Shown here piece after piece: positions 1 through 16,303 of a DNA stretch of 64,000 bases (its first letter is position 1; each line of letters opens with the position of its first letter). Under the pieces are notes generated by a model, which was not told where the DNA came from, searched no databases, and saw only the letters and a list, made by a program, of their open reading frames with translations. The DNA is taken from positions 418,634-482,633 of the forward strand of contig OW818697.1 in NCBI GenBank assembly GCA_942493365.1. Reading direction: 5' to 3'. The DNA is from an uncultured Clostridiaceae bacterium. GTDB lineage: Bacteria; Bacillota; Clostridia; Saccharofermentanales; UBA5734. Made by a program: the position numbers and the translations under genes.

Positions 1-2
1 CG

Positions 3-560
3 GTTCGTGAGCTGATCCGTCAAGGGCAGAAGAACCTGACCATTACATCGAATGATACCGGCCGTCCCGGCGTAGCGGTATTCGACCTGGTCAACGAAGG
101 ACGCGTCACCGGTGTCAACGCCACCTACATTGGCTTCAACCCGGAAACCGGCCGCATGATGATGGAGAACCCCGGCTCGGTCTGCCTCTATCCGCAGGGT
201 ACGCTGGCTGAAAAAATTCGCGCCGGCGGCTACGGTCTCGGCGGCATCCTGACGCCCACTGGTGTTGGCACCATCGTCGAAGAGGGTAAACAAAAAATCA
301 GCGTTGGCGGCAAGGACTACCTGCTCGAAGTGGCTATGCGCGCCGATGTCGCCATGATCCGCGCCCATGTCGCTGACGAAGCCGGCAACCTGGTCATTCG
401 CGGCACAGCCAAAAACTTCAACGTCGTTATGGCCGGCGCTGCCGATTATGTCATCGCCGAAGTCGATGAAATTGTGCCCTTTGGCTCGCTCGACCCCGAA
501 ACCATCACCATCCCCAGCCTCTTGATCCATGCCATCGTCAAAGGAGGGTCCGCCCAATGA
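3..560 (+). CDS. CoA-transferase subunit A (3-oxoacid/acetate CoA-transferase family), 5' end outside window
   Basis: The frame is open from the window edge. 'GTLAEKIRAGGYGLGGILTPTGVGT...IRGTAKNFN' is typical of family I CoA-transferase alpha subunits. The stop overlaps the subunit B start in an ATGA. Confidence 0.85.
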   Translation, partial: VRELIRQGQKNLTITSNDTGRPGVAVFDLVNEGRVTGVNATYIGFNPETGRMMMENPGSVCLYPQGTLAEKIRAGGYGLGGILTPTGVGTIVEEGKQKISVGGKDYLLEVAMRADVAMIRAHVADEAGNLVIRGTAKNFNVVMAGAADYVIAEVDEIVPFGSLDPETITIPSLLIHAIVKGGSAQ

Positions 561-1216
561 ACAGTCGTGAGATTATCGCCAAACGCGTGGCCCTGGAATT
601 CAAAGACGGCGATGTCGTCAATCTCGGCATCGGCATCCCCACCCTTGCTTCCAACTACCTGCCCGAGGGCGTCCACATTATGATCCAATCCGAAAACGGC
701 ATGCTCGGCATGGGTCCGGCCGCCGCCCCAGAAGCCGCATCCAATGACCTGACCGATGCCGGCGGCAATCCTGTTACCATCGTTCCCGGTGGCATGTTCT
801 TCGACAGCGCCACCTCGTTTGGCCTTATCCGCGGCGGCCACGTCGACGAAACCGTACTCGGCGCGCTCGAAGTCGACCAGTACGGCAATTTGGCCAACTG
901 GATGATCCCTGGCAAGAAAGTTCCCGGCATGGGCGGCGCGATGGACCTCGTCTGCGGTGCCCGCAAAGTGATCGTGGCTATGGAGCACATCAACAAGGAC
1001 GGCTCGGCCAAAATCCTCGACAAATGCCGTCTGCCGCTGACCGCCGCCAACAAGGTCAATCTGATCATCACCAACATGGCCGTGATCAAGATCAAAAAAG
1101 AGGGCGGCCTGGTCCTGCAGGAATTGGCGCCTGACGTCACCGTCGAAGAAGTCATCGCCGGCACCGACGCCAAACTGGAAATATCACCCGACCTGAAAGT
1201 CATGCCGATTGTCTGA
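557..1216 (+). CDS. CoA-transferase subunit B
   Basis: 'VVNLGIGIPT...QSENGMLGMGP...GGAMDLV' is the beta-subunit signature, including the SENG catalytic Glu region. It is translationally coupled to subunit A. Confidence 0.9.
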   Translation: MNSREIIAKRVALEFKDGDVVNLGIGIPTLASNYLPEGVHIMIQSENGMLGMGPAAAPEAASNDLTDAGGNPVTIVPGGMFFDSATSFGLIRGGHVDETVLGALEVDQYGNLANWMIPGKKVPGMGGAMDLVCGARKVIVAMEHINKDGSAKILDKCRLPLTAANKVNLIITNMAVIKIKKEGGLVLQELAPDVTVEEVIAGTDAKLEISPDLKVMPIV

Positions 1217-1250
1217 GACTATCACATGACCCATTTATTTCTAAATACCT

Positions 1251-2375
1251 ATGGAGGAAACATCAGTGACAAAAACCTACAAAATCTTTACCATCAACCC
1301 CGGCTCAACTTCGACCAAGATTGCGCTGTTCGAAAACGACAACCGCGTCTTTGCCGTCAACGTCTCGCATGACGCGGCGGAACTGGCCAAGTTCACTGAA
1401 ATCAGCGATCAGTTTGACTACCGCAAAGACACCATCCTCAGCGAACTGGCCAAACAGAATGTCACGCTGGATGGCACCGATGCCTTCGTCGGCCGCGGCG
1501 GCGGGCTGGTCGGTCTTGAGGGTGGCACCTACACCGTCAACGACATTTTGTACAACCACGCCAAGGTCGGTTTCACGATCAAGCACCCGGCCACACTGGG
1601 CAGCCAGCTGGCGCGGTACTTTTCACAACAGTACGGCGGCATCGCGCTGGTCGTCAATCCGCCGGACGTTGATGAGTTGCAACTGGTTGCCCGCGTCACC
1701 GGCATTGCCAACGTCACCCGCGAAAGTCGCGGCCATCCGCTCAACCAGAAGGAAATCGGTATCCGCTATGCCAGTTCGATCGGCAAGCGATACGAGGACC
1801 TCAACCTGATTATATCGCACATCGGCGGCGGCGTCTCGATAACGGCCCACCAAAAGGGCCGCATGATCGACACTAACGACGTTGTCAACGGCGACGGCCC
1901 GATGGCGCCGACCCGCGTCGGCTCCATCCCTTGTAAAGACATCATCAACATGTGCTTCTCGGGTGAATACACCAAAAAGCAGATGATGGATTACCTGACC
2001 AAAAACGGCGGCATCGTCGATCACCTCGGCACCTCCGACGCCCGCGAAGTCCGAGCGATGATCGACAAGGGTGACAAATACGCTGAGCTGGTTTACGATG
2101 CCATGATCTATCAGATCGGCAAATTTATCGGCGCCTATGCCGCCGTCATGCACGGCAAAGTGGACGCCATCATCCTGACCGGTGGCATTGCCAACGATAC
2201 CTACCTGACATCCAAGGTGACCGAAATGGTCAGTTTCATCGCCCCGGTCAAAGTCATGCCGGGCGAATTCGAGATGGAAGCTCTGGCCAGCGGTGCCCTC
2301 CGCGTCCTGAAGGGCGATGAACAGCCCAAAGAATATACCGGCATCCCGGTCTTCACCGGCTTCGACCGCGGCTGA
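1251..2375 (+). CDS. buk: butyrate (short-chain acyl) kinase
   Basis: The 374-aa product starts 'ILTINPGSTSTKIALFE'-like and carries 'ISHIGGGVSITAH' and 'ILTGGIA', the ASKHA fold motifs of butyrate kinases. Confidence 0.9.
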   Translation: MEETSVTKTYKIFTINPGSTSTKIALFENDNRVFAVNVSHDAAELAKFTEISDQFDYRKDTILSELAKQNVTLDGTDAFVGRGGGLVGLEGGTYTVNDILYNHAKVGFTIKHPATLGSQLARYFSQQYGGIALVVNPPDVDELQLVARVTGIANVTRESRGHPLNQKEIGIRYASSIGKRYEDLNLIISHIGGGVSITAHQKGRMIDTNDVVNGDGPMAPTRVGSIPCKDIINMCFSGEYTKKQMMDYLTKNGGIVDHLGTSDAREVRAMIDKGDKYAELVYDAMIYQIGKFIGAYAAVMHGKVDAIILTGGIANDTYLTSKVTEMVSFIAPVKVMPGEFEMEALASGALRVLKGDEQPKEYTGIPVFTGFDRG

Positions 2376-2464
2376 CCCCGAGCCGCCCAACCAACTGTTT
2401 AATCCCTTCCGGACAGCGCACCCCGCCGCCGGCAGGATTATAAAATGAAAGGAGTCTTAAGAAC

Positions 2465-2704
2465 ATGAAAGAAGAAATACTGGCCATGATTATCGAGAAG
2501 GCCGCCAGCATCTACCAGCTCGACCCCGCAACCTTGAGTGCGGCTACCCGCTTTAATGAGGATTACAATGCCAAGTCGATGGATTTGGTCAAAATCATTG
2601 GCGTCCTTGAGGACGAATTCGGCCTCGACATCAACTTTATGGAATTTCGTCGCAAACTGACCTTCGGCGAAGCTGCCGATTATGTCACCGGCCTGGCCGA
2701 ATAA
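2465..2704 (+). CDS. acyl carrier protein-like, stand-alone
   Basis: The 79-aa acidic helical protein has 'AKSMDLVKIIGVLEDEFGL', matching the ACP 'DSLD..EL....EEEF' phosphopantetheine-Ser region. An AAAGGAG ribosome-binding site lies upstream. Confidence 0.7.
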   Translation: MKEEILAMIIEKAASIYQLDPATLSAATRFNEDYNAKSMDLVKIIGVLEDEFGLDINFMEFRRKLTFGEAADYVTGLAE

Positions 2705-2719
2705 GGGGAGGAAAAATTA

Positions 2720-4486
2720 ATGACGCTGACAAAAGAAATGGTCCTGAGCATGAAAGCCGAACGTATCACCAAAATCAAAAAGTTCGGCGATGAAGAGATC
2801 GAATGTGTCTATCGCAAATGCAGAAAACCGCTGACCAAGGAAGAACTTTCCAAGATGAGCGGCACAGCGACGGATTTCTTTGGTTTTTGCCCGGAGTTCA
2901 ACCAGCGCACCTACATTGCCGAAGACGGCATCATCTGTGACCAGGACGTCGCCGTGAAACTGCGCGATGGCACGACGATTTACACCGACATTTTCCGCCC
3001 GCAGAACGCGACCGGCAAGGTCCCCTGCATCGTTTCCTGGAGCCCCTTCGGCAAACGTCCGGGTGACGGCATGGACGAATGGAAAATCATGGGCGTCCCG
3101 CCCCAGACCGTTTCCAACATGGCCAAATTCGAATCGGTTGACCCGGCCTACTGGTGCCGTCAAGGTTACGCGGTCGCCAATGTTGACCCGCGCGGCATCG
3201 GCCATTCCGAAGGCGATCATGAACTGTTCGGCGGCCAGGATGGCCGTGACGGCTACGATTTCATCGAATGGCTCGCGACCCAGGATTGGTGCGGCAAAAT
3301 CGGCATGTGCGGCAACTCCGGCGTCGCCATGGTTCACTGGCGTATCGCCGCCGAACAGCCGCCGAACCTGGTCTGTATCGCTCCGTGGGAAGGCACCGCT
3401 GACATGTACCGCGAATCCACCTACGAAGGCGGCATCCCGGCCTTTGGCTTCCCCGAATTCATCGCCGGCTCGGTTACCGGTGAAAACTACATCGACGACA
3501 TGGTTCTGATGGCCGTTAAATATCCGAAAATGAACGGCTACTGGGAAGACAAAGCACCAAAAATGGAAAAAATCAAAATCCCCGTTTATGCCACGGCCTG
3601 CTGGAACCACTTCCACCTGCGCGGCGCATGGGATGGCTTCCGCAAGGTCCGTTCGGCCAAAAAGTGGATGCGCGCCCATCGCGAATTTGAGTGGCCGGAT
3701 GCCTACTGCACCGAAGGCCTCGAAGATCTCAAGCGCTTCTATGATCGCTATCTGAAGGATATCCGCAACGGCTGGGAGCTGACCCCGAAAATTCGCATCG
3801 AAGTTCAGGATGCCTACGACTTCGATTTCCAAAAAGCCCGTCCGGAGAAAGAATGGCCGATTGCCCGCACCGATTACCGCAAGCTATACATGGATGCCGC
3901 TTCGGCTTCGATGGCCTATAACACCTGCGCCAAGGAGTCTAAAGTCAGCTATGATGCCGCAACCGGACTGACCACCTTCGACGTTAAGTTCACTGAAGAC
4001 ACCGAAATTACCGGCTACATGAAGCTGCACATGTTTGTTGAAGCCATTGGCAATGATGACATGGACTTCTTTATCAACGTTCAGAAGCTCGACGAGCAAG
4101 GCAACTGGCTGCCGGTCAGCGTGCTCGGCGAACCCCATCCGGGTGCCTGGGGCAAAATGCGTGTCTCAGCGCGCGAGCTGGATACCAAACTGTCCACCGA
4201 TTACCGCCCGATCCAGAAACACACCAGCGAACTCAAGCTCACAGCTGGCGAAATCGTGCCGGTTGACATTGAGATTTGGCCGACCAGCCGCCTCTGGCAC
4301 AAAGGCCAGCAGCTGCGCCTGCAGATTGCCGGTCATTACATTCGCGAGGGCTGGTTCGAACGCCTGGAATGGGACACCAACAACAAGGGCCAGCACGTTA
4401 TCCACACGGGCGGGCAATTTGAGTCTTATCTGCAGATCCCGGTCATTCCGCCGCGTTACGTTGCCGGCGACTACGTTTACCGATAA
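2720..4486 (+). CDS. CocE/NonD family (S15 X-Pro dipeptidyl-peptidase-like) hydrolase
   Basis: The 588-aa product has 'GYAVANVDPRGIGHSEG', 'DGYDFIEWLATQDWCGKIGMCGNSGVAM' and a C-terminal beta-sandwich-like region, as in CocE/NonD esterases and amidases. Confidence 0.8.
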   Translation: MTLTKEMVLSMKAERITKIKKFGDEEIECVYRKCRKPLTKEELSKMSGTATDFFGFCPEFNQRTYIAEDGIICDQDVAVKLRDGTTIYTDIFRPQNATGKVPCIVSWSPFGKRPGDGMDEWKIMGVPPQTVSNMAKFESVDPAYWCRQGYAVANVDPRGIGHSEGDHELFGGQDGRDGYDFIEWLATQDWCGKIGMCGNSGVAMVHWRIAAEQPPNLVCIAPWEGTADMYRESTYEGGIPAFGFPEFIAGSVTGENYIDDMVLMAVKYPKMNGYWEDKAPKMEKIKIPVYATACWNHFHLRGAWDGFRKVRSAKKWMRAHREFEWPDAYCTEGLEDLKRFYDRYLKDIRNGWELTPKIRIEVQDAYDFDFQKARPEKEWPIARTDYRKLYMDAASASMAYNTCAKESKVSYDAATGLTTFDVKFTEDTEITGYMKLHMFVEAIGNDDMDFFINVQKLDEQGNWLPVSVLGEPHPGAWGKMRVSARELDTKLSTDYRPIQKHTSELKLTAGEIVPVDIEIWPTSRLWHKGQQLRLQIAGHYIREGWFERLEWDTNNKGQHVIHTGGQFESYLQIPVIPPRYVAGDYVYR

Positions 4487-4495
4487 GTGATGTGG

Positions 4496-4582: not shown

Positions 4583-5899
4583 ATGAAGAATTTGAAAAGA
4601 CAGGGCTGGATCGTTTTAGCGACCGCGACCGGCATCAATTTTCTGGCGGGTCTGCTTTACATCTGGAGTGTCATCAAAACCGGTCTCAAAAATGATTTGG
4701 GATGGAATGATATGCAGGCCACACTGCCGTACACGGTTGCCATCGTTGCCTTTGTCTGCACCATGGTTGGTATTGGCAAACTGCAGGACATCAAAGGTCC
4801 ACGCCTGACAGCCACCTTGTCTGGAATCTTGATGGGTTCCGGATTAATACTTTCCAGTCTGCACACTGACCCAACCCTGATGATCATCACCTTTGGCGTG
4901 ATAACCGGCGCCGGTTGCGGCATCAGCAATGTTTCGACTGTACCCCCGGCTGTCAAATGGTTTTCCCCAACGAAGAAGGGCATGGTCACCGGCGTCGTCG
5001 TTGCCGGTGTCGCCTTGGCCTCTGTTTTCTACTCACCCTTCACCCACACCTTGATCGGCACCAAAGAAAATCCCAGTCTGGGTCTTTCGGGAACATTTCT
5101 GGTCATGGGCATCGGCATCCTGATTTTGACGGTTTTCTTTGCCCAATTTTTGAAAAATCCACCGATCGGTTTTGACGCAGCCACATCAACCATCGCTGAT
5201 GCGGGACATGCTACAGCGGCGATAGAAGCAGAGAAGGTAAAAAACTTTGGCGCTGACCTCAATTGGATGCAACTGCTCAAGCGACTGGACTTTTATAAAT
5301 TGTGGATCATGTTCGCCTTTGCTTCTGCCGCCGGCTTATTTGTCATCGGCAACGTCATGCAAATAGCTGCCGGTCAATCCGGCATGATCAAGGCGGATAT
5401 TGACAAATATTCTTTCTTACTGGTCATTTTACTGGCCATCTTTAATGCCATCGGTCGCTTTCTGGGTGGTTCCCTGGCCGACAAAATACATCATTATACG
5501 TTGCTGAGCATTATCTTTGCCGTCGCTGCAACCAACATAGCGCTCTTTTCTGTCTACAACAACATCGTTCTGGTCAGCATCGGAATTGCTGTTGCAGGTC
5601 TCTGCTACGGCGCCGGATTTGCTGCCTTCCCGACGATCATGGTCAGTAATTACGGGGTAAAAAATTACGGTTCGAACTACGGCATAATTATGACAGCCTG
5701 GGGCGTTGGCAGCATTATCGGTCCGATGGTCGCGGCAGCAATTCGCGATTCTTCCGGCACCTATACTGCGGCCTATTTCTTTTGCTGCGCCCTGTTGGTT
5801 ATTGCCCTGTTGATCGCACTTGCAACCCGATTCGGAAAAAAAGAGAACTGCTGCAACTACCAAATGAAGACCAGCATTACAAGTTGCCCACTGGAGTGA
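4583..5899 (+). CDS. MFS transporter (oxalate/formate antiporter-like subfamily)
   Basis: The 438-aa product has about 12 hydrophobic helices. The N-terminal 'GLLYIWSV...LGW' pattern is typical of OFA-type MFS proteins. Confidence 0.75.
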   Translation: MKNLKRQGWIVLATATGINFLAGLLYIWSVIKTGLKNDLGWNDMQATLPYTVAIVAFVCTMVGIGKLQDIKGPRLTATLSGILMGSGLILSSLHTDPTLMIITFGVITGAGCGISNVSTVPPAVKWFSPTKKGMVTGVVVAGVALASVFYSPFTHTLIGTKENPSLGLSGTFLVMGIGILILTVFFAQFLKNPPIGFDAATSTIADAGHATAAIEAEKVKNFGADLNWMQLLKRLDFYKLWIMFAFASAAGLFVIGNVMQIAAGQSGMIKADIDKYSFLLVILLAIFNAIGRFLGGSLADKIHHYTLLSIIFAVAATNIALFSVYNNIVLVSIGIAVAGLCYGAGFAAFPTIMVSNYGVKNYGSNYGIIMTAWGVGSIIGPMVAAAIRDSSGTYTAAYFFCCALLVIALLIALATRFGKKENCCNYQMKTSITSCPLE

Positions 5900-8012: not shown

Positions 8013-8025
8013 AAGGCGGCCAGTG

Positions 8026-9534: not shown

Positions 9535-9621
9535 ACCCTGAAACCAGTTGACTACGGGAGTGTCCCGTTGAAAAATGATCCCTAGCCAAAAATTATCGAT
9601 TATTTTAAGGAGGAAACGATC

Positions 9622-10783: not shown

Positions 10784-10785
10784 GC

Positions 10786-11718
10786 ATGAAAACGATCAAG
10801 AACGTCACCATTATCGGCAACGGCCTGATGGGCTGCGGCTGCGCCCTGGTGTTTGCCAGAAATCCTGAGTTTGATGTCACCATCAAATACCGTTCCGGCA
10901 CCGCGGACATGATCTATGACAAAATCCGCGGCTTCCTGGTTCCGCTGGTCAACAAGGGTGTCTACACCCAAGATGAAGCCGACACCATCGTTGGCCGCGT
11001 CAAGACCGAGACTGATCTGGCCGCGTCGGTCAAAGACGCCGACCTGGTTATGGAGTGCATTGCAGAGAACATGACCCTCAAACAGGACCAGTTCGCTGCG
11101 CTAGAACCGCTGACCCGCCCGGACACTATTTATGCGACCAACACCTCGGTCATGAGCATCACGGCCATTGCCTCTAAGACGGTCAAAAAGGATCGCGTTG
11201 TCGGAACCCACTTCTGGAATCCGCCCTATCTGATTCCGCTGGTTGAAGTCGTCAAGGCTTTCGAGACCTCCGACGAAACCATGGATCTGACCCTCGACGC
11301 TCTGCTGCGCGCCGGCAAAAAAGCTGTTCGCTGCAACAAAGACGTACCGGGATTCATCGCCAATCGTATGCAGCACGCCCTCTGGCGCGAAGCCATTTCC
11401 ATCGTCGCACACGGCATCGCCGATGCCGCCACGGTCGACGAAGCCGTTCGCAACAGTTTTGGCCTGCGCTTGCCGGTCCTTGGCCCGATGGAGAATTCGG
11501 ACATGGTCGGCACCGACCTAACCCTCTCCATCCACGAATACATGCTGCAGCACCTCGAAAATGATCCGACCCCCTCGCCGCTGCTCTTAGAAAAAGTCGC
11601 CGCCGGCGATCTCGGCTTCAAGAGCGGCAAAGGCTTCCAGGAGTGGGACGCGGATTCGATTGCTGCCTCACGCCGCAAGCTGAGCGAACATCTGATCAAA
11701 ATGCTGTATAACAAATAA
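10786..11718 (+). CDS. 3-hydroxyacyl-CoA dehydrogenase family protein
   Basis: It has 'VTIIGNGLMGCG', 'TNTSVMSIT', 'HFWNPPYLIPLVEV' and 'DVPGFIANR', the Hbd/HADH signature blocks. The ORF opens at a TTG at 10771, but the ATG at 10786 follows GGGGGA. Confidence 0.85.
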   Translation: MKTIKNVTIIGNGLMGCGCALVFARNPEFDVTIKYRSGTADMIYDKIRGFLVPLVNKGVYTQDEADTIVGRVKTETDLAASVKDADLVMECIAENMTLKQDQFAALEPLTRPDTIYATNTSVMSITAIASKTVKKDRVVGTHFWNPPYLIPLVEVVKAFETSDETMDLTLDALLRAGKKAVRCNKDVPGFIANRMQHALWREAISIVAHGIADAATVDEAVRNSFGLRLPVLGPMENSDMVGTDLTLSIHEYMLQHLENDPTPSPLLLEKVAAGDLGFKSGKGFQEWDADSIAASRRKLSEHLIKMLYNK

Positions 11719-11750
11719 TCAGTCGAAACTTTTCAGGAGGAACTATAATC

Positions 11751-12701
11751 ATGGGCAAAAAAGTATTTGTTGACCTAACCCACCCCTTCAGCGCGGAGAT
11801 CCCCCGCTGGCCCTATTTTGACAAACCGATCATCGACAGTGCGCACACCATGGCCAAAGGTGGCGTACTGACCCAGAAAATCACCTGCACCATGCACACT
11901 GGCACCCACTGCGATGCCCCCCGACACGTCATGGAAAAAGAATTTGACGGCCGCAGAGCCCGCTACACTCACGAAATGGCTGTCGATGCCTACACCGGCG
12001 ATGCCGTCTGCCTGCCGATCGAAATCGGGCGCTGGGGTCTGATCGGTCCTGAGCACCTCGAAGCGGCCTGCAAAAAAGTCGGCATTAAGCCGAGCGAACT
12101 GGAAGGCATGATCGTATGCCTGAACACCGGTATGCACCGCCAGTTTGACGACTCCAAAGATTATTACCACTATTCATGCGGTACCGGCATCGAAGCCGGA
12201 CGTTGGTTTCTCAAGCACAAGGTCAAGTGCGTCGCGGTCGACTCGCAGGCGCTGGATCATCCGCTGCACACTGCCATGGGCAATAACGGCATGACCCGTA
12301 TGAACCTGATCGGCGCCACCGGCCGGACAATCTGCGAAGAATACATCGAGCAGTTCGGCATCGAAGCCTACGCTGAATTCGACCGTGAGACCTACATCAA
12401 AGTTCATGGTCAGGCCGCATATGACAAAAAATTCGGCGATCTGGAAGCCATCGGCTGCTGGGGCACCTGGGAACCCATGCACAAGCTGCTGCTGGGCAAT
12501 GGTATCGTTGGCGTCGAAAATCTGGGCGGTGATCTGGACAAGGTATCCGGCAAACGTTTCCGCTTCAATTGTTTCCCGCTGCGCTGGTATCTCGGCGACG
12601 GCTCCATGGCGCGTTGCGTTGCTGAAATCGACGAGGATGACCTGAATGATGTCCCAGACAGAAAGTACAAATATGGCGGTTTCGGACCCAACGAAGACTA
12701 A
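11751..12701 (+). CDS. cyclase family protein (kynurenine-formamidase-like metal hydrolase fold)
   Basis: '[11 protein letters not shown]' matches the HxGTHxDxPxH motif of the putative cyclase family. Confidence 0.75.
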
Positions 12702-12714
12702 AGGAGATTTCACA

Positions 12715-13896
12715 ATGAAAGAAGTTGTCATCGTTTCGGCGGCACGTACGCCGATCGGTTGCTTCGGCGGATCCCTTGCAGCATTCAGCGCTGTTGAACT
12801 CGGCGCGCAAACAGCCATTGAGGTCATCAAACGTGCCGGCATTGCGCCGGAAGCGATTGACGAAGTCGTTCTCGGCGGTGTCCTGACTGCCGCGCAAGGC
12901 CAAAATATCGCTCGCCAGGTGGCGATCAAGGCCGGCTTGCCGGATACCACGCCCGCCATGACCTTGAACATCGTCTGCGGCTCCGGCCTGCGCGCAATCA
13001 GCCTGGCTGCCCAGATGATCAGGTCCGGCGAAGCCGAGGTTATCCTGGCTGGCGGCATGGAAAGCATGACCAACGCGGTCTACGCCCTGAAAAAGGCACG
13101 TTACGGCTATCGCATGGGCAATGACCAGATTATCGACACCATGGTCAACGATGGTTTGTGGGATGCCTTCAACGACTACCACATGGGCACAACGGCGGAA
13201 AACATTGCCGAAGAGTGGCAGATCACTCGCGAAGAACAAGACGCTTTCGCCGCCACCAGCCAGCAGCGGGCTGTCGCGGCCATCGAAGCCGGTTACTTCA
13301 AAGACGAGATCATGCCGGTCCCGATTCCGCAGAAAAAGGGCGATCCTGTGATGTTCGACACCGACGAATATCCCCGCGCCGGCACCACAGCCGAAACCCT
13401 GTCCAAACTCAAACCCGCCTTCAAAAAAGACGGCACCGTGACCGCCGGCAATGCGTCCGGCATTAACGACGGCGCCGCCATGCTGATCGTCATGTCCCGC
13501 GAAAAGGCCGATGCACTCGGCCTCAAGTCGATGGCTAAAATTGTCGGCATCGGCACCGGTGGCGTTGATCCCAGGATAATGGGCTACGGGCCGGTTCCCG
13601 CAACGAAAAAAGCCCTGGCTATGGCCGGTCTGACCGTCAAGGACCTGGACCTGATCGAAGCTAATGAAGCTTTCGCGGCTCAGTCAATCGCAGTTGCCCG
13701 CGACCTCGGCCTCGATCTGGCTAAAACCAATGTCTCCGGCGGTGCCATCGCACTCGGCCATCCGATTGGCGCGTCCGGCGCTCGCATTGCCACCACCCTG
13801 CTCTATGGCATGCAACGAACCAAGTCTCGTTATGGCCTGGCCACGCTGTGCATCGGCGGCGGCATGGGCACCGCCATCATCTTCGAACGAGTCTAA
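12715..13896 (+). CDS. acetyl-CoA C-acetyltransferase (thiolase II)
   Basis: It starts '[15 protein letters not shown]' and carries '[10 protein letters not shown]' (active-site Cys), '[10 protein letters not shown]' and 'CIGGGMG'. The ATG at 12715 follows AAGGAG; the longer ORF from 12646 overlaps the upstream gene. Confidence 0.92.
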
Positions 13897-13926
13897 AGAC
13901 TCAAAAACAGAAAGGAAGTATCCAAA

Positions 13927-14769
13927 ATGGTAGATCTGACAAACAAAGTTATCCTGACCGTTGCCCCGACCGGCGCCTGGCCCCAAAAAACCGATACACC
14001 GTACATTCCGACCCAACCGCGCGAAATCGCTGACGAGGTCATCGCCTGCGCCAAAGCCGGCGCCTCAATCGCCCACATTCATGTCCGCGACGACAACGAC
14101 AAATCATCGATGGATTACAACAAATTCACCGAAACCGTCAAGTACATTCGCGAAGCCAAATGCGACATCGTGCTTAACCTGACTACTTCTGGCAAGCTGG
14201 GACTTCAGGGCGCCGAGCGCTATCAGCACGTCATCGATCTCAAGCCTGAAATGTGCTCCTATGACTGCGGCTCCATGAACTGGATGCACAGCTCGGTCTT
14301 TGAAAACAGCCCGCCCTTCCTCGAGGAACTCGGTACAGTTCTGATCGAAAACAATGTCAAACCGGAAATCGAAATCTTTGACGGCGGCATGATTTACAAT
14401 GCTCAATATTACCTGAAAAAGGGCTTTCTCAAAGGCCCTCTGCACTACCAATTTGTTTTGGGCGCAGCTGGCGGTATGGACGCCACCGTCGAAAACCTGG
14501 TCTTTCTCAAGAGCCTGATCCCGCCTGGATCCACTTGGAGCGCCATGGGTATCGGCAAGGGCCATATGCCGATTCTTTATACTGCGCTGGCCATGGGCGG
14601 CCACATCCGCGTCGGTATGGAAGACAACATCGTCTACAGCAAGGGCGTTCTGGCCACCTCCAACATGCAGTTCGTTGAGCGCAGCAAGCGCATCATCCAT
14701 GAGTTCAACAAGCAAGTTGCCACGCCGGACGAAGCTCGTATGATCCTCGGTCTGATCCCCAACGTTTAA
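13927..14769 (+). CDS. BKACE family beta-keto acid cleavage enzyme (DUF849; 3-keto-5-aminohexanoate cleavage enzyme-like)
   Basis: The 280-aa product has 'ILTVAPTGAW...PYIP..P.EIA.E...C..AGASI.HIHVRD', which is characteristic of Kce/BKACE TIM-barrel enzymes. Confidence 0.85.
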   Translation: MVDLTNKVILTVAPTGAWPQKTDTPYIPTQPREIADEVIACAKAGASIAHIHVRDDNDKSSMDYNKFTETVKYIREAKCDIVLNLTTSGKLGLQGAERYQHVIDLKPEMCSYDCGSMNWMHSSVFENSPPFLEELGTVLIENNVKPEIEIFDGGMIYNAQYYLKKGFLKGPLHYQFVLGAAGGMDATVENLVFLKSLIPPGSTWSAMGIGKGHMPILYTALAMGGHIRVGMEDNIVYSKGVLATSNMQFVERSKRIIHEFNKQVATPDEARMILGLIPNV

Positions 14770-14795
14770 TCACGGCCTGACATCTGACACCAAAA

Positions 14796-14833: not shown

Positions 14834-14852
14834 CGCGGAGTAGCGGCAATTT

Positions 14853-14861
14853 TGCTATAAT
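14853..14861 (+). promoter_or_regulatory. extended -10 promoter element (TGcTATAAT) upstream of acpS-pta
   Basis: TGCTATAAT lies at 14853-14861, directly after the terminator. No good -35 element is present. Confidence 0.4.
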
Positions 14862-14906
14862 AGTTGCAGAGGCTAGAGCCAATCCATGAGGAGGCAACGA
14901 GCAATC

Positions 14907-15293
14907 ATGATTACGGGTGTTGGCACCGATATTCTCAAAATTGATCGACTCCGCAACGACCAAGCAAGTCTGACGACTGGCTCGCCGTTCCTGACAAAAA
15001 CATTCACGACCGATGAATTGCATGCAGCCGCAGAGCGCGCCGACCCCACACGCTATCTGGCCACACGATTTGCCGGCAAAGAGGCGGTCTTCAAAGCTCT
15101 AGGCACCGGTGACGGGCTGATTCGTCTCAATGAAATTGAAATCCTTAACGACGACAACGGTCAGCCCAATGTGACATTAAGCGGACGGGCGCGACTGGCC
15201 GCTGATGCGATGAGCGTCACCAATATCCAGATTTCGTTATCCCATGATACCGACTACGCAATTGCCTTTGCAATTATGCAAAACCAGGAATAA
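14907..15293 (+). CDS. acpS: holo-[acyl-carrier-protein] synthase (4'-phosphopantetheinyl transferase)
   Basis: It starts 'MITGVGTDILKIDR' and carries 'FAGKEAVFKALG' and 'ISLSHD', the AcpS hallmarks. An alternative upstream ATG lies at 14886. Confidence 0.78.
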   Translation: MITGVGTDILKIDRLRNDQASLTTGSPFLTKTFTTDELHAAAERADPTRYLATRFAGKEAVFKALGTGDGLIRLNEIEILNDDNGQPNVTLSGRARLAADAMSVTNIQISLSHDTDYAIAFAIMQNQE

Positions 15294-15307
15294 CAGGAGG
15301 AATCCCT

Positions 15308-16303
15308 ATGAGCTCAACCGTCATGGAAAAACTATTTGAAAAGGCCAAGTTGGCCCCCAAACGCATGGTGCTGCCCGAAACCGATGATGACCGCATCCTG
15401 CAGTCGGCCCGTAAAGCCAAAGACATGGGCATTACCCAGCCGATTTTGCTCGGCCAGCCGGACGAACTCAAAGCCCGTGCCGCGACGCTCGGCTTCAACC
15501 TTGACGGCATCGAGCTGATTGACAGTACCGACGACGCAGTCATCGAGCAAATCGCCAACGAATACTTCGCGGTCAAGCAGGATTTCTCAACCAAGGGGCT
15601 GATCCGCAAGATGAAAGATCCGCTTAATATGGCCGCAATCCTTTTGGGTGCCGGCCGCGCCGACTGCATGATGGCCGGTATCAACCACGGCACCGCTGAT
15701 GTTGTCCTGGCCGGACAGATGTACATCGGCCCCAAACCGGGATTCAATACCATTTCCAGCCTGGGCATGATGGACATTCCCGGTTGGGAAGGTTCCGAAG
15801 GCAATCTGCTCGGTTTCTCTGACTCGGCGGTCAACGCCGACCCGGATGCCGGCATGCTGGCCGACATCGCCATCACAACGGCTGACAGCGTTCAACGCAT
15901 CTTTGGCTGGGAGCCACGCGTCGCCCTGCTTTCATTCTCGACCAAAGGCAGCACCGAACATGAGCAGGTTGACAAAGTCCGCGCTGCGCTGGCCATTGCC
16001 CGCGAACGCCGTCCCAATCTCAAAATCGATGGCGAATTCCAGCTGGACGCGGCCATCGTGCCGGCTGTCGCCGCCAAAAAGGTCAAAGAGCCCAGTGATG
16101 TCGCCGGCAAAGCCAACATCATCATCTGGCCCAACCTCTCGGCTGGCAACATCGGCGTCAAGCTGGTCCAGATCTTCGGTCATGCCAACGCTTACGGCCC
16201 GATGCTGCAAGGCTTCGCCAAGTCAATCGGTGACTTTTCCCGCAGCGCCCCGGTCGACGAAATGGTCGGCAACATGGCGATGGTCGCCTTAAATGTTGAA
16301 TAA
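15308..16303 (+). CDS. phosphate acetyl/butyryl-transferase (PTA_PTB family)
   Basis: The 331-aa product has 'VLPE..D.RIL.A' and 'EFQLDAA...A..K...S.VAG.ANI.IWPNL.AGNIGVKL', as in short Pta enzymes. Confidence 0.85.
   Translation: MSSTVMEKLFEKAKLAPKRMVLPETDDDRILQSARKAKDMGITQPILLGQPDELKARAATLGFNLDGIELIDSTDDAVIEQIANEYFAVKQDFSTKGLIRKMKDPLNMAAILLGAGRADCMMAGINHGTADVVLAGQMYIGPKPGFNTISSLGMMDIPGWEGSEGNLLGFSDSAVNADPDAGMLADIAITTADSVQRIFGWEPRVALLSFSTKGSTEHEQVDKVRAALAIARERRPNLKIDGEFQLDAAIVPAVAAKKVKEPSDVAGKANIIIWPNLSAGNIGVKLVQIFGHANAYGPMLQGFAKSIGDFSRSAPVDEMVGNMAMVALNVE

What the first reader, a model, noticed from the sequence alone, without database searches (positions are those of the whole stretch)
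1..16303. Sixteen-gene co-directional island built around a BKACE enzyme: predicted new beta-keto-acid fermentation route
All the parts of a closed substrate-level-phosphorylation loop sit together.

- Dehydrogenases (a 3-hydroxyacyl-CoA-DH-like enzyme and an SDR) could oxidise a beta-hydroxy acid.
- BKACE enzymes are known to cleave beta-keto acids with acetyl-CoA, giving acetoacetate plus an acyl-CoA.
- CoA-transferase A/B and thiolase turn acetoacetate into 2 acetyl-CoA.
- Pta and a Buk-type kinase convert acyl-CoA to ATP.

The substrate-defining genes do not match the classical lysine-fermentation (kam/kdd/kal) or aerobic carnitine contexts of BKACEs. These are the MFS importer, CocE/NonD esterase/amidase, cyclase-family hydrolase, cupin and ACP. 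The substrate is therefore probably an ester, amide or lactam of a beta-hydroxy acid that has not been assigned. The cluster may extend upstream of the window.
Basis: inference. Interest (0 to 1): 0.7.

Follow-up and report, generated by a model that had tools for sequence, protein, structure and literature searches.

The report
Phloroglucinol breakdown operon with extra module
This 16-gene operon is the already-published anaerobic pathway that breaks the plant-phenol ring phloroglucinol down to acetyl-CoA and ATP, but it also carries a widely conserved, undescribed five-gene set (carrier protein, serine hydrolase, activating enzyme, phosphotransferase, kinase) that may make ATP in a new way.

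Summary
There are 16 co-directional genes from 1 to 16303 with the stated families, and the order is kept in relatives.

The claim of a new route with an unassigned substrate is not right. Genes 9995-14769 are the four enzymes of anaerobic phloroglucinol degradation (Zhou et al. 2023, PMC10470551), plus a thiolase:
- phloroglucinol reductase (PGR);
- triacetate-forming dehydrogenase (TfD);
- dihydrophloroglucinol cyclohydrolase (DPGC);
- triacetate acetoacetate-lyase (TAL, the BKACE).

All published diagnostic residues are present. That includes Trp in place of the Kce Glu that binds the amino group. A relative has a LysR regulator upstream, not kam/kdd genes.

Three things remain unexplained:
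1. ACP, the CocE/NonD hydrolase, AcpS, Pta and Buk form an independent module. Among 80 metagenome loci seeded on the hydrolase, 68 carry part of it and 46 carry ACP+Pta+Buk. Neighbours are usually flavonoid-type reductases. I infer acyl capture on ACP, then acyl-phosphate, then ATP.
2. A truncated Stn-like Fe-S flavoprotein pair probably supplies reductant.
3. A cupin precedes PGR in most clusters.

Verdict: a known pathway in a new variant. Interest is moderate and rests on the module.

The parts
1..560 (+). CoA-transferase subunit A (CtfA/ScoA-like), 5' end cut by the window edge (frame starting at base 3)
   Evidence: PF01144 131.6 bits; TIGR02429 136.7 bits, above the 128.5 cut-off. The full-length 220-aa orthologue in L088 is preceded by a LysR regulator.
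557..1216 (+). CoA-transferase subunit B (3-oxoacid CoA-transferase B family). Inferred role: acetoacetate to acetoacetyl-CoA.
   Evidence: TIGR02428 309.1 bits, above the 243.55 cut-off. Linked to the core in 12 of 29 phloroglucinol-type loci.
1251..2375 (+). Butyrate-kinase family acyl-phosphate kinase; member of the ACP/S15/AcpS/Pta/Buk module
   Evidence: TIGR02707 431.7 bits, above the 289.1 cut-off. Homologues of 50-72% identity lie beside the S15 hydrolase in 54-55 of 80-81 loci.
2465..2704 (+). Dedicated acyl carrier protein with an atypical 'AKS' attachment motif and a conserved FMEFRRK motif
   Evidence: PF00550 25 bits. Below all NCBIfam ACP cut-offs. Alignment with 14 module ACPs and E. 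coli AcpP. Found at a median of 75 nt from the S15 gene in 65 of 80 loci.
2720..4486 (+). CocE/NonD (peptidase S15 fold) serine hydrolase/acyltransferase. Proposed nucleophile Ser200 (GNSGVAM), with Asp228 and His299.
   Evidence: TIGR00976 202.3 bits, above the 66.3 cut-off. PDB 3IB3 308 bits, function unknown. More than 120 clusters at 64-86% identity across phyla. Invariant residues from alignment A2.
4583..5899 (+). MFS transporter of the oxalate/formate-antiporter / monocarboxylate type
   Evidence: NF049980 (SfMCT) 344.2 bits, above the 320 cut-off; PF07690. The same MFS type follows the module in minimal loci L147-L150, L157 and L163.
5904..8012 (+). Fe-S flavoprotein: an N-terminal NuoG/HydA-like 2Fe-2S and 4Fe-4S domain fused to an NfnB/GltD-like FAD/NADPH domain (StnB-like, shortened)
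   Evidence: Pfam domains. Residues 224-686 match StnB 8OH5_C 103-567 (388 bits) and 9BOV_A (441 bits); residues 1-211 match HydA/NuoG.
7999..9534 (+). NuoF/StnC-like FMN, NADH-binding Fe-S flavoprotein. The probable true start is ATG 8026, which has a ribosome-binding site.
   Evidence: PF01512, PF10589. 9BOV_B 299 bits; StnC 8OH5_B 293 bits. The start call is my reading of the sequence, alongside the start survey.
9622..9975 (+). Small cupin of unknown function, conserved directly upstream of the reductase gene
   Evidence: PF07883 36.7 bits. No PDB relative by sequence. Present in 20 of 29 phloroglucinol-type loci and directly upstream of the SDR in 18.
9995..10783 (+). Phloroglucinol reductase (PGR), an NADPH-dependent SDR
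   Evidence: PDB 5G4K/5G4L 329 bits against 135 bits for the next hit. T-A-R-N at residues 38-41, aligned to T-G-R-N of the structure.
10771..11718 (+). (S)-3-hydroxy-5-oxohexanoate dehydrogenase (TfD), 3HCDH fold. The probable true start is ATG 10786 (310 aa).
   Evidence: PF02737/PF00725. 55.7% identical to CsTfD against 33.2% to Hbd 4KUH. Shares the TfD-specific insertions and C-terminal tail.
11751..12701 (+). Dihydrophloroglucinol cyclohydrolase (DPGC), 'cyclase' family, Mn-dependent C-C hydrolase
   Evidence: PF04199 109.6 bits. 77.6% identical to characterised CsDPGC, with Trp20 and Tyr22 and the HTGTHCDAP metal motif.
12715..13896 (+). Acetoacetyl-CoA thiolase (393 aa). The ORF listed from 12646 starts too early.
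   Evidence: PF00108/PF02803; TIGR01930 490.8 bits, above the 240.55 cut-off. Orthologues in L001 and L005 are 393 aa.
13927..14769 (+). Triacetate acetoacetate-lyase (TAL), BKACE family
   Evidence: PF05853 355.5 bits. Trp18 aligns with the substrate-amino-binding Glu of Kce 2Y7D. APTGAW and the proposed Zn ligands H50, H52 and E232 are invariant. All 39 cyclase-linked homologues carry Trp.
14886..15293 (+). AcpS-type 4'-phosphopantetheinyl transferase. The probable true start is ATG 14907.
   Evidence: PF01648 59.9 bits; TIGR00556 89.8 bits, above the 45.35 cut-off. Kept between BKACE and Pta in L001, L005 and L006. Present beside the S15 gene in 35 loci.
15308..16303 (+). Pta-family phosphotransacylase, divergent from housekeeping Pta. 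Proposed to act on acyl-ACP and/or acetyl-CoA.
   Evidence: PF01515 313.7 bits. Below the equivalog cut-offs (288.7 against 310; 268.9 against 311.2). Best PDB hit 1VMI, 233 bits. Beside the S15 gene in 50 of 81 loci.

Best explanation
The island is an operon for anaerobic degradation of phloroglucinol (1,3,5-trihydroxybenzene), the common ring product of flavonoid and tannin breakdown. It sits in an unnamed member of the Clostridia.

Steps that rest on orthology to characterised enzymes:
1. PGR (9995-10783) reduces phloroglucinol with NADPH to dihydrophloroglucinol.
2. DPGC (11751-12701) opens the ring hydrolytically to (S)-3-hydroxy-5-oxohexanoate.
3. TfD (10786-11718) oxidises this to triacetate (3,5-dioxohexanoate).
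4. TAL, the BKACE (13927-14769), cleaves triacetate with acetyl-CoA into acetoacetyl-CoA and acetoacetate.

Steps inferred from family and context:
5. CoA-transferase A/B activates acetoacetate.
6. Thiolase gives acetyl-CoA.
7. Phosphotransacylase plus kinase yield ATP.

Three additions are not part of the published pathway, and their roles are inferred:
(a) ACP, CocE/NonD hydrolase, AcpS, Pta and Buk form a separately conserved module. I propose that the serine enzyme cleaves an activated acyl compound and passes the acyl group to the ACP thiol instead of water. The Pta homologue then converts acyl-ACP to acyl-phosphate, and the kinase makes ATP. The most likely substrate is an acylphloroglucinol such as a dihydrochalcone. 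That reaction would release phloroglucinol for the core pathway.
(b) The shortened Stn-like Fe-S flavoprotein pair moves electrons between NADH, NADPH and possibly ferredoxin. It would supply the NADPH that PGR needs, or feed a partner reductase in other genomes.
(c) The cupin has no assigned role.
For: Core enzymes:
- The SDR matches the PGR crystal structure 5G4K/5G4L at 329 bits, against 135 bits for the next hit, and keeps the Arg-Asn NADPH motif.
- The cyclase is 77.6% identical to the assayed CsDPGC and has the diagnostic Trp20/Tyr22.
- The 3HCDH-like protein is 55.7% identical to the assayed CsTfD, against 33% to Hbd.
- The BKACE has Trp at the position of Kce Glu14, exactly the substitution reported for CsTAL.
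- The paper lists thiolase, CtfAB, phosphate acetyltransferase, acetate/butyrate kinase and an MFS transporter as cluster partners.

Synteny:
- Cupin-SDR-3HCDH-cyclase-BKACE recurs in 29 species-representative loci. One is Emergencia timonensis, which the paper names.
- Some loci sit next to chalcone isomerase plus a flavone-reductase-like gene (L007) or C-glycoside deglycosidase (L013).

Module:
- Among 80 loci seeded only on the hydrolase, 68 carry at least one of ACP, Pta or Buk. 46 carry all three, and ACP lies a median of 75 nt away.
- Minimal loci hold only regulator-ACP-S15-AcpS-Pta-Buk-MFS, with no CoA-dependent enzyme (L147-L150, L170).
- Compact operons read FLR-like, OYE, SnoaL-like, AcpS, Pta, Buk, ACP, S15 (L104, L118, L121).
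- 32 of the 40 loci spanning 12 kb or more hold a flavonoid-type reductase or phloroglucinol-type gene.
- The FLR-like protein is about 65% identical to the one beside chalcone isomerase in L007.

Stn-like pair:
- The two proteins match StnB at 388 bits and StnC at 293 bits.
- The pair lies directly before PGR in the window, L005 and L037.
- The paper documents the cofactor mismatch between an NADH-preferring TfD and an NADPH-dependent PGR.
Against: - No enzyme of this organism has been assayed. Assignment of the core rests on sequence identity, diagnostic residues and synteny.
- The BKACE misses both relevant NCBIfam equivalog cut-offs: Kce 306.7 against 382, and the 3,5-dioxohexanoate model NF053538 219.7 against 430.
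- Trp at the diagnostic position also occurs in 43 BKACE loci with no cyclase within 10 kb. It is necessary but not specific.
- Module function: no biochemical precedent was found in the literature library.
- The window holds no flavone reductase, enoate reductase or FAD_binding_2 gene. An acylphloroglucinol would therefore have to be taken up as such.
- A hydrolytic DPGC is kept, which argues against the module opening the dihydrophloroglucinol ring.
- The module could run in the ATP-consuming direction.
- The Stn-like pair lacks a StnA/NuoE subunit and the C-terminal half of StnB. In other loci its most frequent neighbour is a FAD_binding_2 reductase, not PGR.
Confidence: 0.85

Rival explanations
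1. This is a previously unknown beta-keto-acid fermentation whose substrate is an unassigned ester, amide or lactam of a beta-hydroxy acid. The CocE/NonD enzyme and the cyclase-family protein act as hydrolases that release the acid, and the two dehydrogenases oxidise it.
For: All the families named are present. ACP and the CocE/NonD hydrolase are indeed absent from the published pathway description.
Against: The SDR, cyclase, 3HCDH-like protein and BKACE match the four characterised phloroglucinol enzymes at 56-78% identity or with a 329-bit structure match. They carry every diagnostic residue. The same four genes recur with flavonoid genes in other genomes. The hydrolase belongs to a module that is mostly found without the BKACE (8 of 81 loci).
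Confidence: 0.05
2. Ordinary lysine fermentation (BKACE = Kce) or carnitine degradation (3HCDH-like protein = carnitine dehydrogenase, BKACE = dehydrocarnitine cleavage enzyme).
For: The best NCBIfam model for the BKACE is the Kce equivalog (306.7 bits). The best PDB hit is Kce 2Y7D (207 bits). Carnitine catabolism in Pseudomonas also uses 3HCDH-like, BKACE, CoA-transferase and thiolase enzymes (my own knowledge).
Against: The Kce score is below its 382-bit cut-off. Glu14, which binds the 5-amino group, is Trp here and in all 12 close relatives. No homologue of 55% identity or more has Glu at that position. No kamA/kamDE/kdd/kal genes are in the cluster or upstream in L088. The carnitine dehydrogenase models score 118-127 bits against cut-offs of 414-592.
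Confidence: 0.01
3. The ACP/S15/AcpS/Pta/Buk module opens cyclic 1,3-diones thiolytically. Candidate substrates are dihydrophloroglucinol, or dihydroresorcinol made by a FAD_binding_2-type ring reductase. The product would be a 5-oxohexanoyl-type acyl-ACP, whose thioester energy is recovered as ATP.
For: The module lies next to FAD_binding_2 plus Stn-like genes in many loci (L013, L037, L092, L094, L110, L162, L165). It also lies next to variant cyclase/BKACE/SDR/3HCDH sets (L115, L132). Dihydrophloroglucinol is itself a cyclic 1,3-dione (PMC10470551).
Against: The window and many other loci keep the hydrolytic DPGC, which would compete for the same substrate. The window has no FAD_binding_2 gene. 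Minimal loci have no reductase at all.
Confidence: 0.12
4. The module runs the other way. The kinase and the Pta homologue activate a free acid at the cost of ATP to acyl-ACP. The S15 enzyme then acts as acyltransferase or thioesterase. The acid might be an aryl-propenoic acid that is then reduced as a thioester, or triacetate/3-hydroxy-5-oxohexanoate.
For: Kinase plus phosphotransacylase reactions are reversible, and acetate activation by Ack/Pta is established knowledge. Ene-reductases (FLR-like, OYE, FAD_binding_2) are the commonest neighbours of the module.
Against: In fermenting anaerobes a butyrate-kinase/Pta pair normally serves ATP formation. Minimal loci contain no enzyme that would use an acyl-ACP. 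In the window the downstream pathway works on free acids and CoA esters.
Confidence: 0.12
5. ACP, AcpS and the hydrolase are unrelated passengers, for example a detoxifying esterase and a lipid-synthesis carrier. On this view Pta and Buk serve only acetyl-/butyryl-CoA from the core pathway.
For: The published C. scatologenes cluster works without ACP or the S15 enzyme and uses Pta plus acetate/butyrate kinase on CoA esters. Only 1 of 29 phloroglucinol-type loci carries the whole module, plus one more that is partial.
Against: ACP, Pta, Buk and AcpS stay tightly linked to the hydrolase across phyla even where no CoA-ester-forming gene is nearby: 46 of 80 loci have all three, and ACP lies a median of 75 nt away. 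The ACP is a distinct subfamily (AKS, FMEFRRK). The Pta is below the housekeeping-Pta cut-offs.
Confidence: 0.1

Closest known systems
Anaerobic phloroglucinol degradation gene cluster of Clostridium scatologenes (PGR, DPGC, TfD, TAL; Zhou et al., mBio 2023, PMC10470551)
   Same: The same four enzyme families with the same diagnostic residues. The same accessory thiolase, CoA-transferase A/B, phosphotransacylase, acyl kinase and MFS transporter. The same logic of ring reduction, hydrolytic ring opening, oxidation and BKACE cleavage.
   Different: The window adds a dedicated ACP, an AcpS, a CocE/NonD serine hydrolase, a two-subunit Stn-like Fe-S flavoprotein and a cupin. The paper mentions none of these. 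The regulator in the nearest relative is LysR-type.
[quoted passage not shown]
   Same: BKACE TIM-barrel family. The residues aligned with the expected Zn ligands and most of the pocket are conserved. It is the best PDB and NCBIfam match.
   Different: The Glu that binds the amino group is Trp. The equivalog cut-off is not reached. There are no kam/kdd/kal neighbours.
Gut-bacterial flavonoid pathway FLR - CHI - enoate reductase - phloretin hydrolase (Flavonifractor plautii, Eubacterium ramulus; named in the supplement of PMC10470551)
   Same: In other genomes the module sits in operons with an FLR-like reductase and an OYE-type enoate reductase. It sits in the position where a dihydrochalcone-cleaving enzyme that releases phloroglucinol would be expected.
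   Different: No phloretin-hydrolase-family gene was seen. A SnoaL-like protein stands where chalcone isomerase would be. A serine hydrolase plus ACP plus Pta plus Buk stands where phloretin hydrolase would be. None of the reductases is in this window. The substitution is an inference, not a test.
Stn (Sporomusa-type Nfn) electron-bifurcating transhydrogenase StnABC (PMC7483475, PMC10482914; PDB 8OH5)
   Same: A NuoF-like FMN subunit (293 bits to StnC) and an NfnB-like FAD/NADPH domain (388 bits to StnB residues 103-567).
   Different: There is no StnA/NuoE gene. The large subunit is 702 aa instead of 1172 aa. It carries its NuoG/HydA-like clusters at the N-terminus instead of a C-terminal formate-dehydrogenase-like half.
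Pta-Ack / Ptb-Buk substrate-level phosphorylation and PlsX (acyl-ACP:phosphate transacylase)
   Same: A phosphotransacylase of the PTA_PTB family and a butyrate-kinase equivalog. PlsX shows that an acyl-ACP can be converted to an acyl-phosphate (my own knowledge).
   Different: Here the pair travels with an ACP, an AcpS and a serine hydrolase rather than with a CoA-ester-forming enzyme. The Pta is not a PlsX homologue at the Pfam level, and its use of acyl-ACP is untested.
CocE/NonD hydrolases (cocaine esterase; alpha-amino-acid ester hydrolases; S. aureus 3IB3)
   Same: S15 alpha/beta-hydrolase domain plus the PepX_C jelly-roll domain. The nucleophile serine aligns. Alpha-amino-acid ester hydrolases are known to transfer acyl groups to acceptors other than water (my own knowledge).
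   Different: Only 308 bits to 3IB3 and 64 bits to CocE. There is a conserved extra N-terminal region of about 70 residues. The family is 64-86% conserved across phyla and genetically tied to an ACP.

Membership tests
Anaerobic phloroglucinol degradation cluster (PGR-DPGC-TfD-TAL) | NADPH-dependent SDR orthologous to phloroglucinol reductase, with the T-x-R-(S/N) 2'-phosphate motif | tested here: met
   329 bits to PDB 5G4K/5G4L against 135 bits for the next SDR. T38-A-R-N41 aligns to T-G-R-N. That 5G4K is the Clostridium sp. ATCC BAA-442 PGR rests on my own knowledge of Conradt et al. 2016, which is cited.
Anaerobic phloroglucinol degradation cluster (PGR-DPGC-TfD-TAL) | Cyclase-family Mn enzyme with Trp20/Tyr22 in place of isatin hydrolase Ile32/Leu34 | tested here: met
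   77.6% identity to CsDPGC (sequence read from the supplement, which has some OCR noise). W20 and Y22 are present, and HTGTHCDAP is conserved.
Anaerobic phloroglucinol degradation cluster (PGR-DPGC-TfD-TAL) | 3HCDH-fold dehydrogenase of the TfD type (catalytic Ser/His/Asn kept, CoA-binding Lys56/Asn221 of Hbd lost) | tested here: met
   55.7% identity to CsTfD against 33.2% to Hbd 4KUH. NTSVMSIT, GTHFWNPP and GFIANRMQH are conserved. The TfD-specific SFGLRLP insertion and C-terminal tail are present. The loss of Lys56/Asn221 was judged only from the alignment.
Anaerobic phloroglucinol degradation cluster (PGR-DPGC-TfD-TAL) | BKACE with Trp replacing the Glu14 of Kce | tested here: met
   W18 aligns with the Glu of 2Y7D (chain index 20 = native Glu14). 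It is invariant in alignment A1 and in all 39 cyclase-linked homologues.
Anaerobic phloroglucinol degradation cluster (PGR-DPGC-TfD-TAL) | The four genes are co-located, and this is conserved across genomes | tested here: met
   They are adjacent at 9995-14769, interrupted only by the thiolase gene (12715-13896). 29 species-representative loci carry BKACE plus a DPGC-like cyclase, 27 of them with 3HCDH and 24 with SDR.
Anaerobic phloroglucinol degradation cluster (PGR-DPGC-TfD-TAL) | Enzyme activities, and induction or growth on phloroglucinol | not testable with these tools
   Needs recombinant enzymes or the organism.
Lysine-fermentation Kce | Glu14 binding the 5-amino group; NCBIfam equivalog NF052387 cut-off; kam/kdd/kal neighbours | tested here: not met
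   Trp stands at that position. The score is 306.7 against a 382 cut-off. No such genes are in the cluster or upstream in L088.
Carnitine dehydrogenase / dehydrocarnitine cleavage | 3HCDH-like protein reaching the carnitine dehydrogenase equivalog cut-offs | tested here: not met
   NF005716 scores 126.8 against 592. NF005471 scores 118 against 414.
NCBIfam NF053538 '3,5-dioxohexanoate:acetyl-CoA acetone transferase' (310-aa BKACE type) | Equivalog cut-off of 430 bits | tested here: not met
   219.7 bits in two stretches. The window protein belongs to the 280-aa Kce-like branch, not this branch.
Stn-type transhydrogenase (StnABC) | NuoF-like StnC subunit and NfnB-like domain of StnB | tested here: met
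   293 bits to 8OH5_B. 388 bits to 8OH5_C residues 103-567.
Stn-type transhydrogenase (StnABC) | Three subunits including NuoE-like StnA; a full-length StnB of about 1170 aa | tested here: not met
   No 2Fe-2S thioredoxin-like gene is in the cluster. The large subunit is 702 aa with a different domain order.
Housekeeping phosphate acetyltransferase (Pta equivalog) | NCBIfam TIGR00651 / NF007233 cut-offs | tested here: not met
   268.9 against 311.2, and 288.7 against 310. Pfam PTA_PTB itself is met at 313.7 bits.
Butyrate kinase | TIGR02707 equivalog cut-off | tested here: met
   431.7 bits against a 289.1 cut-off.
Fatty-acid-synthesis ACP (AcpP) | Equivalog cut-off and the D-S-L phosphopantetheine motif | tested here: not met
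   TIGR00517 scores 34 against 70.45. The motif is A-K-S-(V/M), with the serine conserved.
CocE/NonD hydrolase family | TIGR00976 cut-off and a nucleophile serine in a G-x-S-x-x-G-type elbow | tested here: met
   202.3 bits against a 66.3 cut-off. S200 aligns with the serine of 3IB3 and is invariant in alignment A2.

The most novel reading that the evidence does not exclude
ACP, CocE/NonD enzyme, AcpS, Pta homologue and butyrate-kinase homologue together form a new kind of substrate-level phosphorylation module that uses a carrier protein instead of CoA.

Proposed steps:
1. The serine enzyme cleaves an activated bond. The best guess is the aryl-ketone C-C bond of an acylphloroglucinol or dihydrochalcone, which would make it an energy-conserving counterpart of phloretin hydrolase. 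A cyclic 1,3-dione or an aryl ester is also possible.
2. The acyl group goes to the ACP thiol instead of water.
3. The Pta homologue makes the acyl-phosphate.
4. The kinase makes ATP.

In this window the released phloroglucinol would feed directly into the adjacent core pathway. Anaerobes would gain one extra ATP per polyphenol molecule.
Probability: 0.35. Interest if true: 0.85.

Novelty: new variant of a known kind. Interest (0 to 1): 0.55.

Why it matters
Phloroglucinol is the funnel through which anaerobes mineralise flavonoids and tannins in guts, peat and sediments. Recognising this operon as that pathway removes a false 'new pathway' lead.

The variant matters for two reasons.

1. It places a Stn-like NADH/NADPH/ferredoxin module directly before the NADPH-dependent ring reductase. 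This offers a testable answer to the cofactor mismatch that PMC10470551 discusses.

2. It exposes a five-gene module built around a carrier protein and a serine hydrolase. The module is conserved across many anaerobic lineages, is tied to polyphenol-degrading genes, and is undescribed in the literature I could search. If it captures acyl groups on ACP and converts them to ATP, it would be a new mechanism of energy conservation. It would also change growth-yield estimates for polyphenol fermentation.

Tried and rejected
- Exact-sequence look-up of the window's own BKACE, and of its 100% twin P0001, to find the source contig. Nothing is on record. Taxonomy was only narrowed to Clostidia-level: unnamed Clostridia, through 6-phosphogluconate dehydrogenase relatives at 72-77% identity.
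- The genome-collection scan did not return the source species. The best hit was 75% identical.
- Rfam scan of the whole window: no riboswitch or other RNA family.
- Promoter/terminator scan: counts are close to the shuffle controls (13 promoter-like sites against 8.3 ± 2.4; 28 terminator-like sites against 20.7 ± 4.5). No usable internal terminator. Promoter-like sites at 9548-9596 and 14717-14744 are only weak hints.
- AlphaFold of the cupin as a single sequence (pLDDT 54) and of the S15 enzyme with a 12-sequence alignment (pLDDT 42). Both are too poor for fold searches, so none was run.
- PDB sequence search for the cupin: no hit.
- Literature searches linking phloroglucinol genes or CocE/NonD enzymes to ACP, Pta or Buk, and searches for resorcinol reductase or cyclohexanedione hydrolase genes. 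Nothing relevant beyond PMC10470551.
- The bioRxiv paper that mentions triacetate turned out to be about malonyl-CoA engineering and is irrelevant.
- The lysine-fermentation and carnitine readings were considered and rejected on residue, score and context tests.
- The idea that Trp18 alone proves TAL function was rejected. Trp also occurs in 43 loci with no cyclase nearby.

Full report
OBSERVATION

Sixteen ORFs lie head to tail on the + strand from base 1 to 16303. Pfam and NCBIfam give each a clear family:
- CoA-transferase A (cut by the window start; frame from base 3) and B;
- a butyrate-kinase equivalog;
- a small PP-binding carrier protein;
- a CocE/NonD (peptidase S15 + PepX_C) hydrolase;
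- an MFS transporter of the oxalate/formate-monocarboxylate type;
- a 702-aa Fe-S flavoprotein (2Fe-2S, NuoG-type 4Fe-4S, GltD/NfnB-like);
- a NuoF-like flavoprotein;
- a cupin;
- an SDR;
- a 3-hydroxyacyl-CoA-dehydrogenase-fold protein;
- a 'cyclase'-family protein;
- a thiolase;
- a BKACE;
- an AcpS-type phosphopantetheinyl transferase;
- a Pta-family phosphotransacylase.

Its argument, however, left out the two Fe-S flavoproteins and AcpS.

Gaps run from -14 to 137 nt, and almost every start has a GGAGG-type ribosome-binding site. No credible + strand terminator separates the genes. The best-supported starts are:
- 10786 for the 3HCDH-like gene and 14907 for AcpS;
- 12715 for the thiolase, from the 393-aa orthologues;
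- 8026 for the NuoF-like gene, from my own reading of the sequence.

The cluster stops at 16303, where a convergent GGDEF-EAL gene begins in a lower-GC stretch (0.458 against 0.562). The rest of the window is unrelated housekeeping, adhesin and lipoprotein genes.

WHAT THE CORE IS

The block 9995-14769 (SDR, 3HCDH-like, cyclase, thiolase, BKACE) matches the anaerobic phloroglucinol pathway worked out biochemically in Clostridium scatologenes (Zhou et al. 2023, PMC10470551). The steps there are:
1. Phloroglucinol reductase (PGR, an SDR, NADPH) makes dihydrophloroglucinol.
2. Dihydrophloroglucinol cyclohydrolase (DPGC, cyclase family, Mn2+) makes (S)-3-hydroxy-5-oxohexanoate.
3. A triacetate-forming dehydrogenase (TfD, 3HCDH fold) makes triacetate.
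4. Triacetate acetoacetate-lyase (TAL, a BKACE 'closely homologous to Kce') uses acetyl-CoA to make acetoacetate plus acetoacetyl-CoA.

The paper gives diagnostic residues, and I tested each.
- BKACE. Trp18 aligns with the Glu of Kce that binds the 5-amino group. This is chain index 20 of 2Y7D, native Glu14, and it is the reported Glu-to-Trp change in CsTAL. The APTGAW motif and the residues I take to be the Zn ligands (His50, His52, Glu232) are invariant in 12 relatives.
- Cyclase. It is 77.6% identical to CsDPGC and has Trp20 and Tyr22.
- 3HCDH-like protein. It is 55.7% identical to CsTfD but 33% to the true CoA-ester enzyme Hbd. It shares the TfD-specific insertions.
- SDR. It scores 329 bits against PDB 5G4K/5G4L, with 135 bits for the next SDR. 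It keeps the Arg-Asn NADPH motif. That 5G4K is the Clostridium sp. PGR rests on my own knowledge of Conradt et al. 2016.

The paper also names thiolase, CtfAB, phosphate acetyltransferase, acetate/butyrate kinase and an MFS transporter as regular cluster partners.

- The Kce equivalog model scores 306.7 bits, below its 382 cut-off.
- The carnitine dehydrogenase models score 118-127 bits against cut-offs of 414-592.
- In the closest relative with upstream sequence (L088), the operon starts with CoA-transferase A behind a LysR regulator. No kam/kdd genes are present.
- Among about 95 BKACE homologues retrieved, none has Glu at the diagnostic position. All 39 that sit with a DPGC-like cyclase have Trp.
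- Trp also occurs in 43 loci with no cyclase nearby. It is necessary but not sufficient.
- The window BKACE also misses the cut-off of NF053538, a 310-aa BKACE type annotated for 3,5-dioxohexanoate (219.7 against 430). It belongs to the Kce-like 280-aa branch instead.

CONSERVATION

- Relatives with 90-92% BKACE identity keep the same order, including AcpS-Pta after the BKACE and S15 hydrolase, MFS and the Fe-S pair before the SDR (L001, L005, L088).
- A scan of one genome per species gave 29 loci that combine the BKACE with a DPGC-like cyclase (60% identity or more). Of these, 27 have the TfD-like gene, 24 the SDR and 20 the cupin (18 directly upstream of the SDR). 12 have the CoA-transferase, 9 the thiolase and 4 the large Fe-S flavoprotein.
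- One of these loci is Emergencia timonensis, which the paper lists.
- Neighbours elsewhere point to polyphenols. A flavone-reductase-like FMN protein and a chalcone isomerase lie beside the core in Acetoanaerobium noterae (L007). C-glycoside deglycosidase subunits do so in an Oscillospiraceae MAG (L013). A molybdoenzyme and a TRAP transporter do so in HGW-Firmicutes-11 (L003).
- The source organism could only be placed among unnamed Clostridia.

THE PART THAT IS NOT IN THE LITERATURE

ACP, the CocE/NonD hydrolase and AcpS do not appear in the paper. I therefore asked where homologues of the hydrolase occur.

The family is large and strikingly conserved. More than 120 clusters show 64-86% identity over the full length, from Clostridia, Syntrophorhabdales, Desulfobacteraceae, Dehalococcoidia and others. 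The serine nucleophile is invariant (Ser200).

Eighty metagenome loci were seeded only on this protein. I compared them with the window's 16 proteins.
- 65 carry the ACP, at a median of 75 nt from the hydrolase.
- 54 carry the butyrate-kinase homologue, 50 the Pta homologue and 35 AcpS.
- 46 carry ACP, Pta and Buk together, although many contigs are short.
- Only 8-14 carry phloroglucinol-type genes.

Annotated contigs confirm compact operons:
- AcpS-ACP-S15-Pta-Buk in a Syntrophorhabdales MAG;
- ACP-S15-Pta-Buk in an Anaerocolumna-like contig;
- regulator-ACP-S15-AcpS-Pta-Buk-MFS in gut metagenomes, with no CoA-dependent enzyme at all (L147-L150).

The module ACP is its own subfamily. The serine sits in A-K-S rather than D-S-L, there is a conserved FMEFRRK motif, and all NCBIfam ACP cut-offs are missed. 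The Pta is below the housekeeping-Pta cut-offs. The kinase is a clear butyrate-kinase equivalog.

Pta and Buk in this window therefore belong genetically with ACP and the hydrolase, not simply with the CoA pathway. In L013 and L162 all 16 families are linked again in a different order, with ACP-AcpS-Pta-Buk adjacent.

WHAT THE MODULE PROBABLY DOES (INFERENCE)

The commonest neighbours of the module are:
- a 321-aa FMN reductase, in 33 loci, about 65% identical to the one beside chalcone isomerase in L007;
- a FAD_binding_2 flavoprotein, in 20-21 loci;
- an OYE-type enoate reductase, in 15 loci;
- the large Fe-S flavoprotein, in 13-15 loci;
- a SnoaL-like protein;
- corrinoid O-demethylase parts.

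Of the 40 loci that span 12 kb or more, 32 hold at least one flavonoid-type reductase or phloroglucinol-type gene.

Operons such as FLR-like, OYE, SnoaL-like, AcpS, Pta, Buk, ACP, S15 (L104, L118, L121) mirror the known flavonoid route of FLR, chalcone isomerase, enoate reductase and phloretin hydrolase. The module stands in the place of the final C-C hydrolase, whose products are phloroglucinol and an arylpropionate.

My preferred mechanism has four steps:
1. The serine enzyme forms an acyl-enzyme from an acylphloroglucinol or dihydrochalcone.
2. The acyl group goes to the ACP thiol.
3. The Pta homologue makes the acyl-phosphate.
4. The kinase makes ATP, and phloroglucinol enters the adjacent core pathway.

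Each step has a precedent in established enzymology, all from my own knowledge:
- acyl transfer by alpha-amino-acid ester hydrolases of this family;
- acyl-ACP:phosphate transacylation by PlsX;
- reversible thioester-level C-acylation of phloroglucinol by the PhlACB acyltransferase.

None of this was tested here. Alternatives are listed as rivals: thiolytic opening of cyclic 1,3-diones, aryl-ester cleavage, or an ATP-consuming direction.

Three points count against the preferred reading. The window has no flavone reductase, enoate reductase or FAD_binding_2 gene. In close relatives a FAD_binding_2 gene follows Pta where the window has the GGDEF-EAL gene. Only 1 of 29 phloroglucinol-type loci, plus one partial, carries the module.

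THE Fe-S FLAVOPROTEIN PAIR

The NuoF-like protein matches StnC of the Sporomusa-type transhydrogenase (8OH5_B, 293 bits). Residues 224-686 of the 702-aa protein match the NfnB-like part of StnB (8OH5_C, 388 bits). Its first 211 residues are NuoG/HydA-like cluster domains.

There is no StnA/NuoE gene, and the large subunit is 470 residues shorter than StnB. It is therefore not a member of the StnABC family as defined, although it plausibly works like one.

The pair stands directly before PGR in the window, L005 and L037. The paper stresses that TfD prefers NADH while PGR needs NADPH. A transhydrogenase role is thus a sensible inference. Elsewhere the pair's usual neighbour is the FAD_binding_2 protein, so it may be a general electron-input module.

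THE CUPIN

The cupin sits directly upstream of PGR in 18 of 29 loci. It has no PDB relative by sequence, only a weak NCBIfam match, and no mention in the paper. Its role is open. The AlphaFold models of the cupin and of the hydrolase were too poor to use.

VERDICT

The island is a new variant of a known kind. It is a phloroglucinol operon that has recruited a Stn-like redox module and an undescribed module of ACP, serine hydrolase, AcpS, Pta and Buk. The module is the only part that would surprise a specialist. Its existence as a conserved unit is well supported, and its mechanism is inferred.

Noticed in passing
window 9622-9975; loci L003, L007, L009, L010, L013-L019 and others: A 113-122-aa cupin sits directly upstream of the phloroglucinol reductase gene in 18 of 29 phloroglucinol-type loci. 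The pathway paper does not mention it. It has no PDB relative by sequence, and its best NCBIfam hit is a weak match (75.5 bits against a 175 cut-off) to a small M. tuberculosis cupin annotated as beta-D-galactosidase.
   Followed up: partly
window 16289-20900: A lower-GC stretch (0.458 against 0.562 in the operon) holds a 1046-aa 7TM-GGDEF-EAL protein and a CdhD-like gene. In close relatives (L001, L005) the same position after Pta holds a FAD_binding_2 flavoprotein, a second S15 hydrolase and AtuA. These genes seem to have been replaced or lost here.
   Followed up: partly
L115 8059-11615; L132 1890-5543: Two metagenome loci pair the ACP/S15/Pta/Buk module with a divergent BKACE-cyclase-SDR-3HCDH set (30-54% identity to the window proteins). 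The BKACE has Val or Ile instead of Trp at the diagnostic position. This may be a ring-cleavage pathway for a different phenol.
   Followed up: no
L067, L069, L070, L072, L073, L076, L079, L083: Trp-type BKACE genes sit next to a TfD-like dehydrogenase (48-55% identity) with no PGR or DPGC within 10 kb. They may form a two-enzyme unit for another beta-hydroxy acid, or part of a split pathway.
   Followed up: no
L003 1-2893 (HGW-Firmicutes-11): A molybdopterin oxidoreductase with a Fer4_11 subunit and a NarJ-like chaperone lies directly upstream of a phloroglucinol cluster. A cupin, a TRAP transporter and an Amidohydro_2 gene lie downstream. This could be a pyrogallol/resorcinol-type hydroxylase or transhydroxylase and a decarboxylase feeding phloroglucinol.
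   Followed up: no
window 39366-43697: Four tandem ORFs of about 350 aa with lipoprotein-like N-termini and no Pfam match. They are paralogous in an A-B-A-B pattern: 57% identity between the 1st and 3rd, 55% between the 2nd and 4th, and about 30% across pairs.
   Followed up: partly
window 29431-35907: A 2158-aa surface protein with two VWA domains and about eleven Big_9/cadherin-like repeats. It is probably an adhesin.
   Followed up: no
window 21361-22887 and 37865-39316: Glucose-6-phosphate dehydrogenase and 6-phosphogluconate dehydrogenase genes lie in the same window. The oxidative pentose-phosphate route is another possible NADPH source for the reductase.
   Followed up: no
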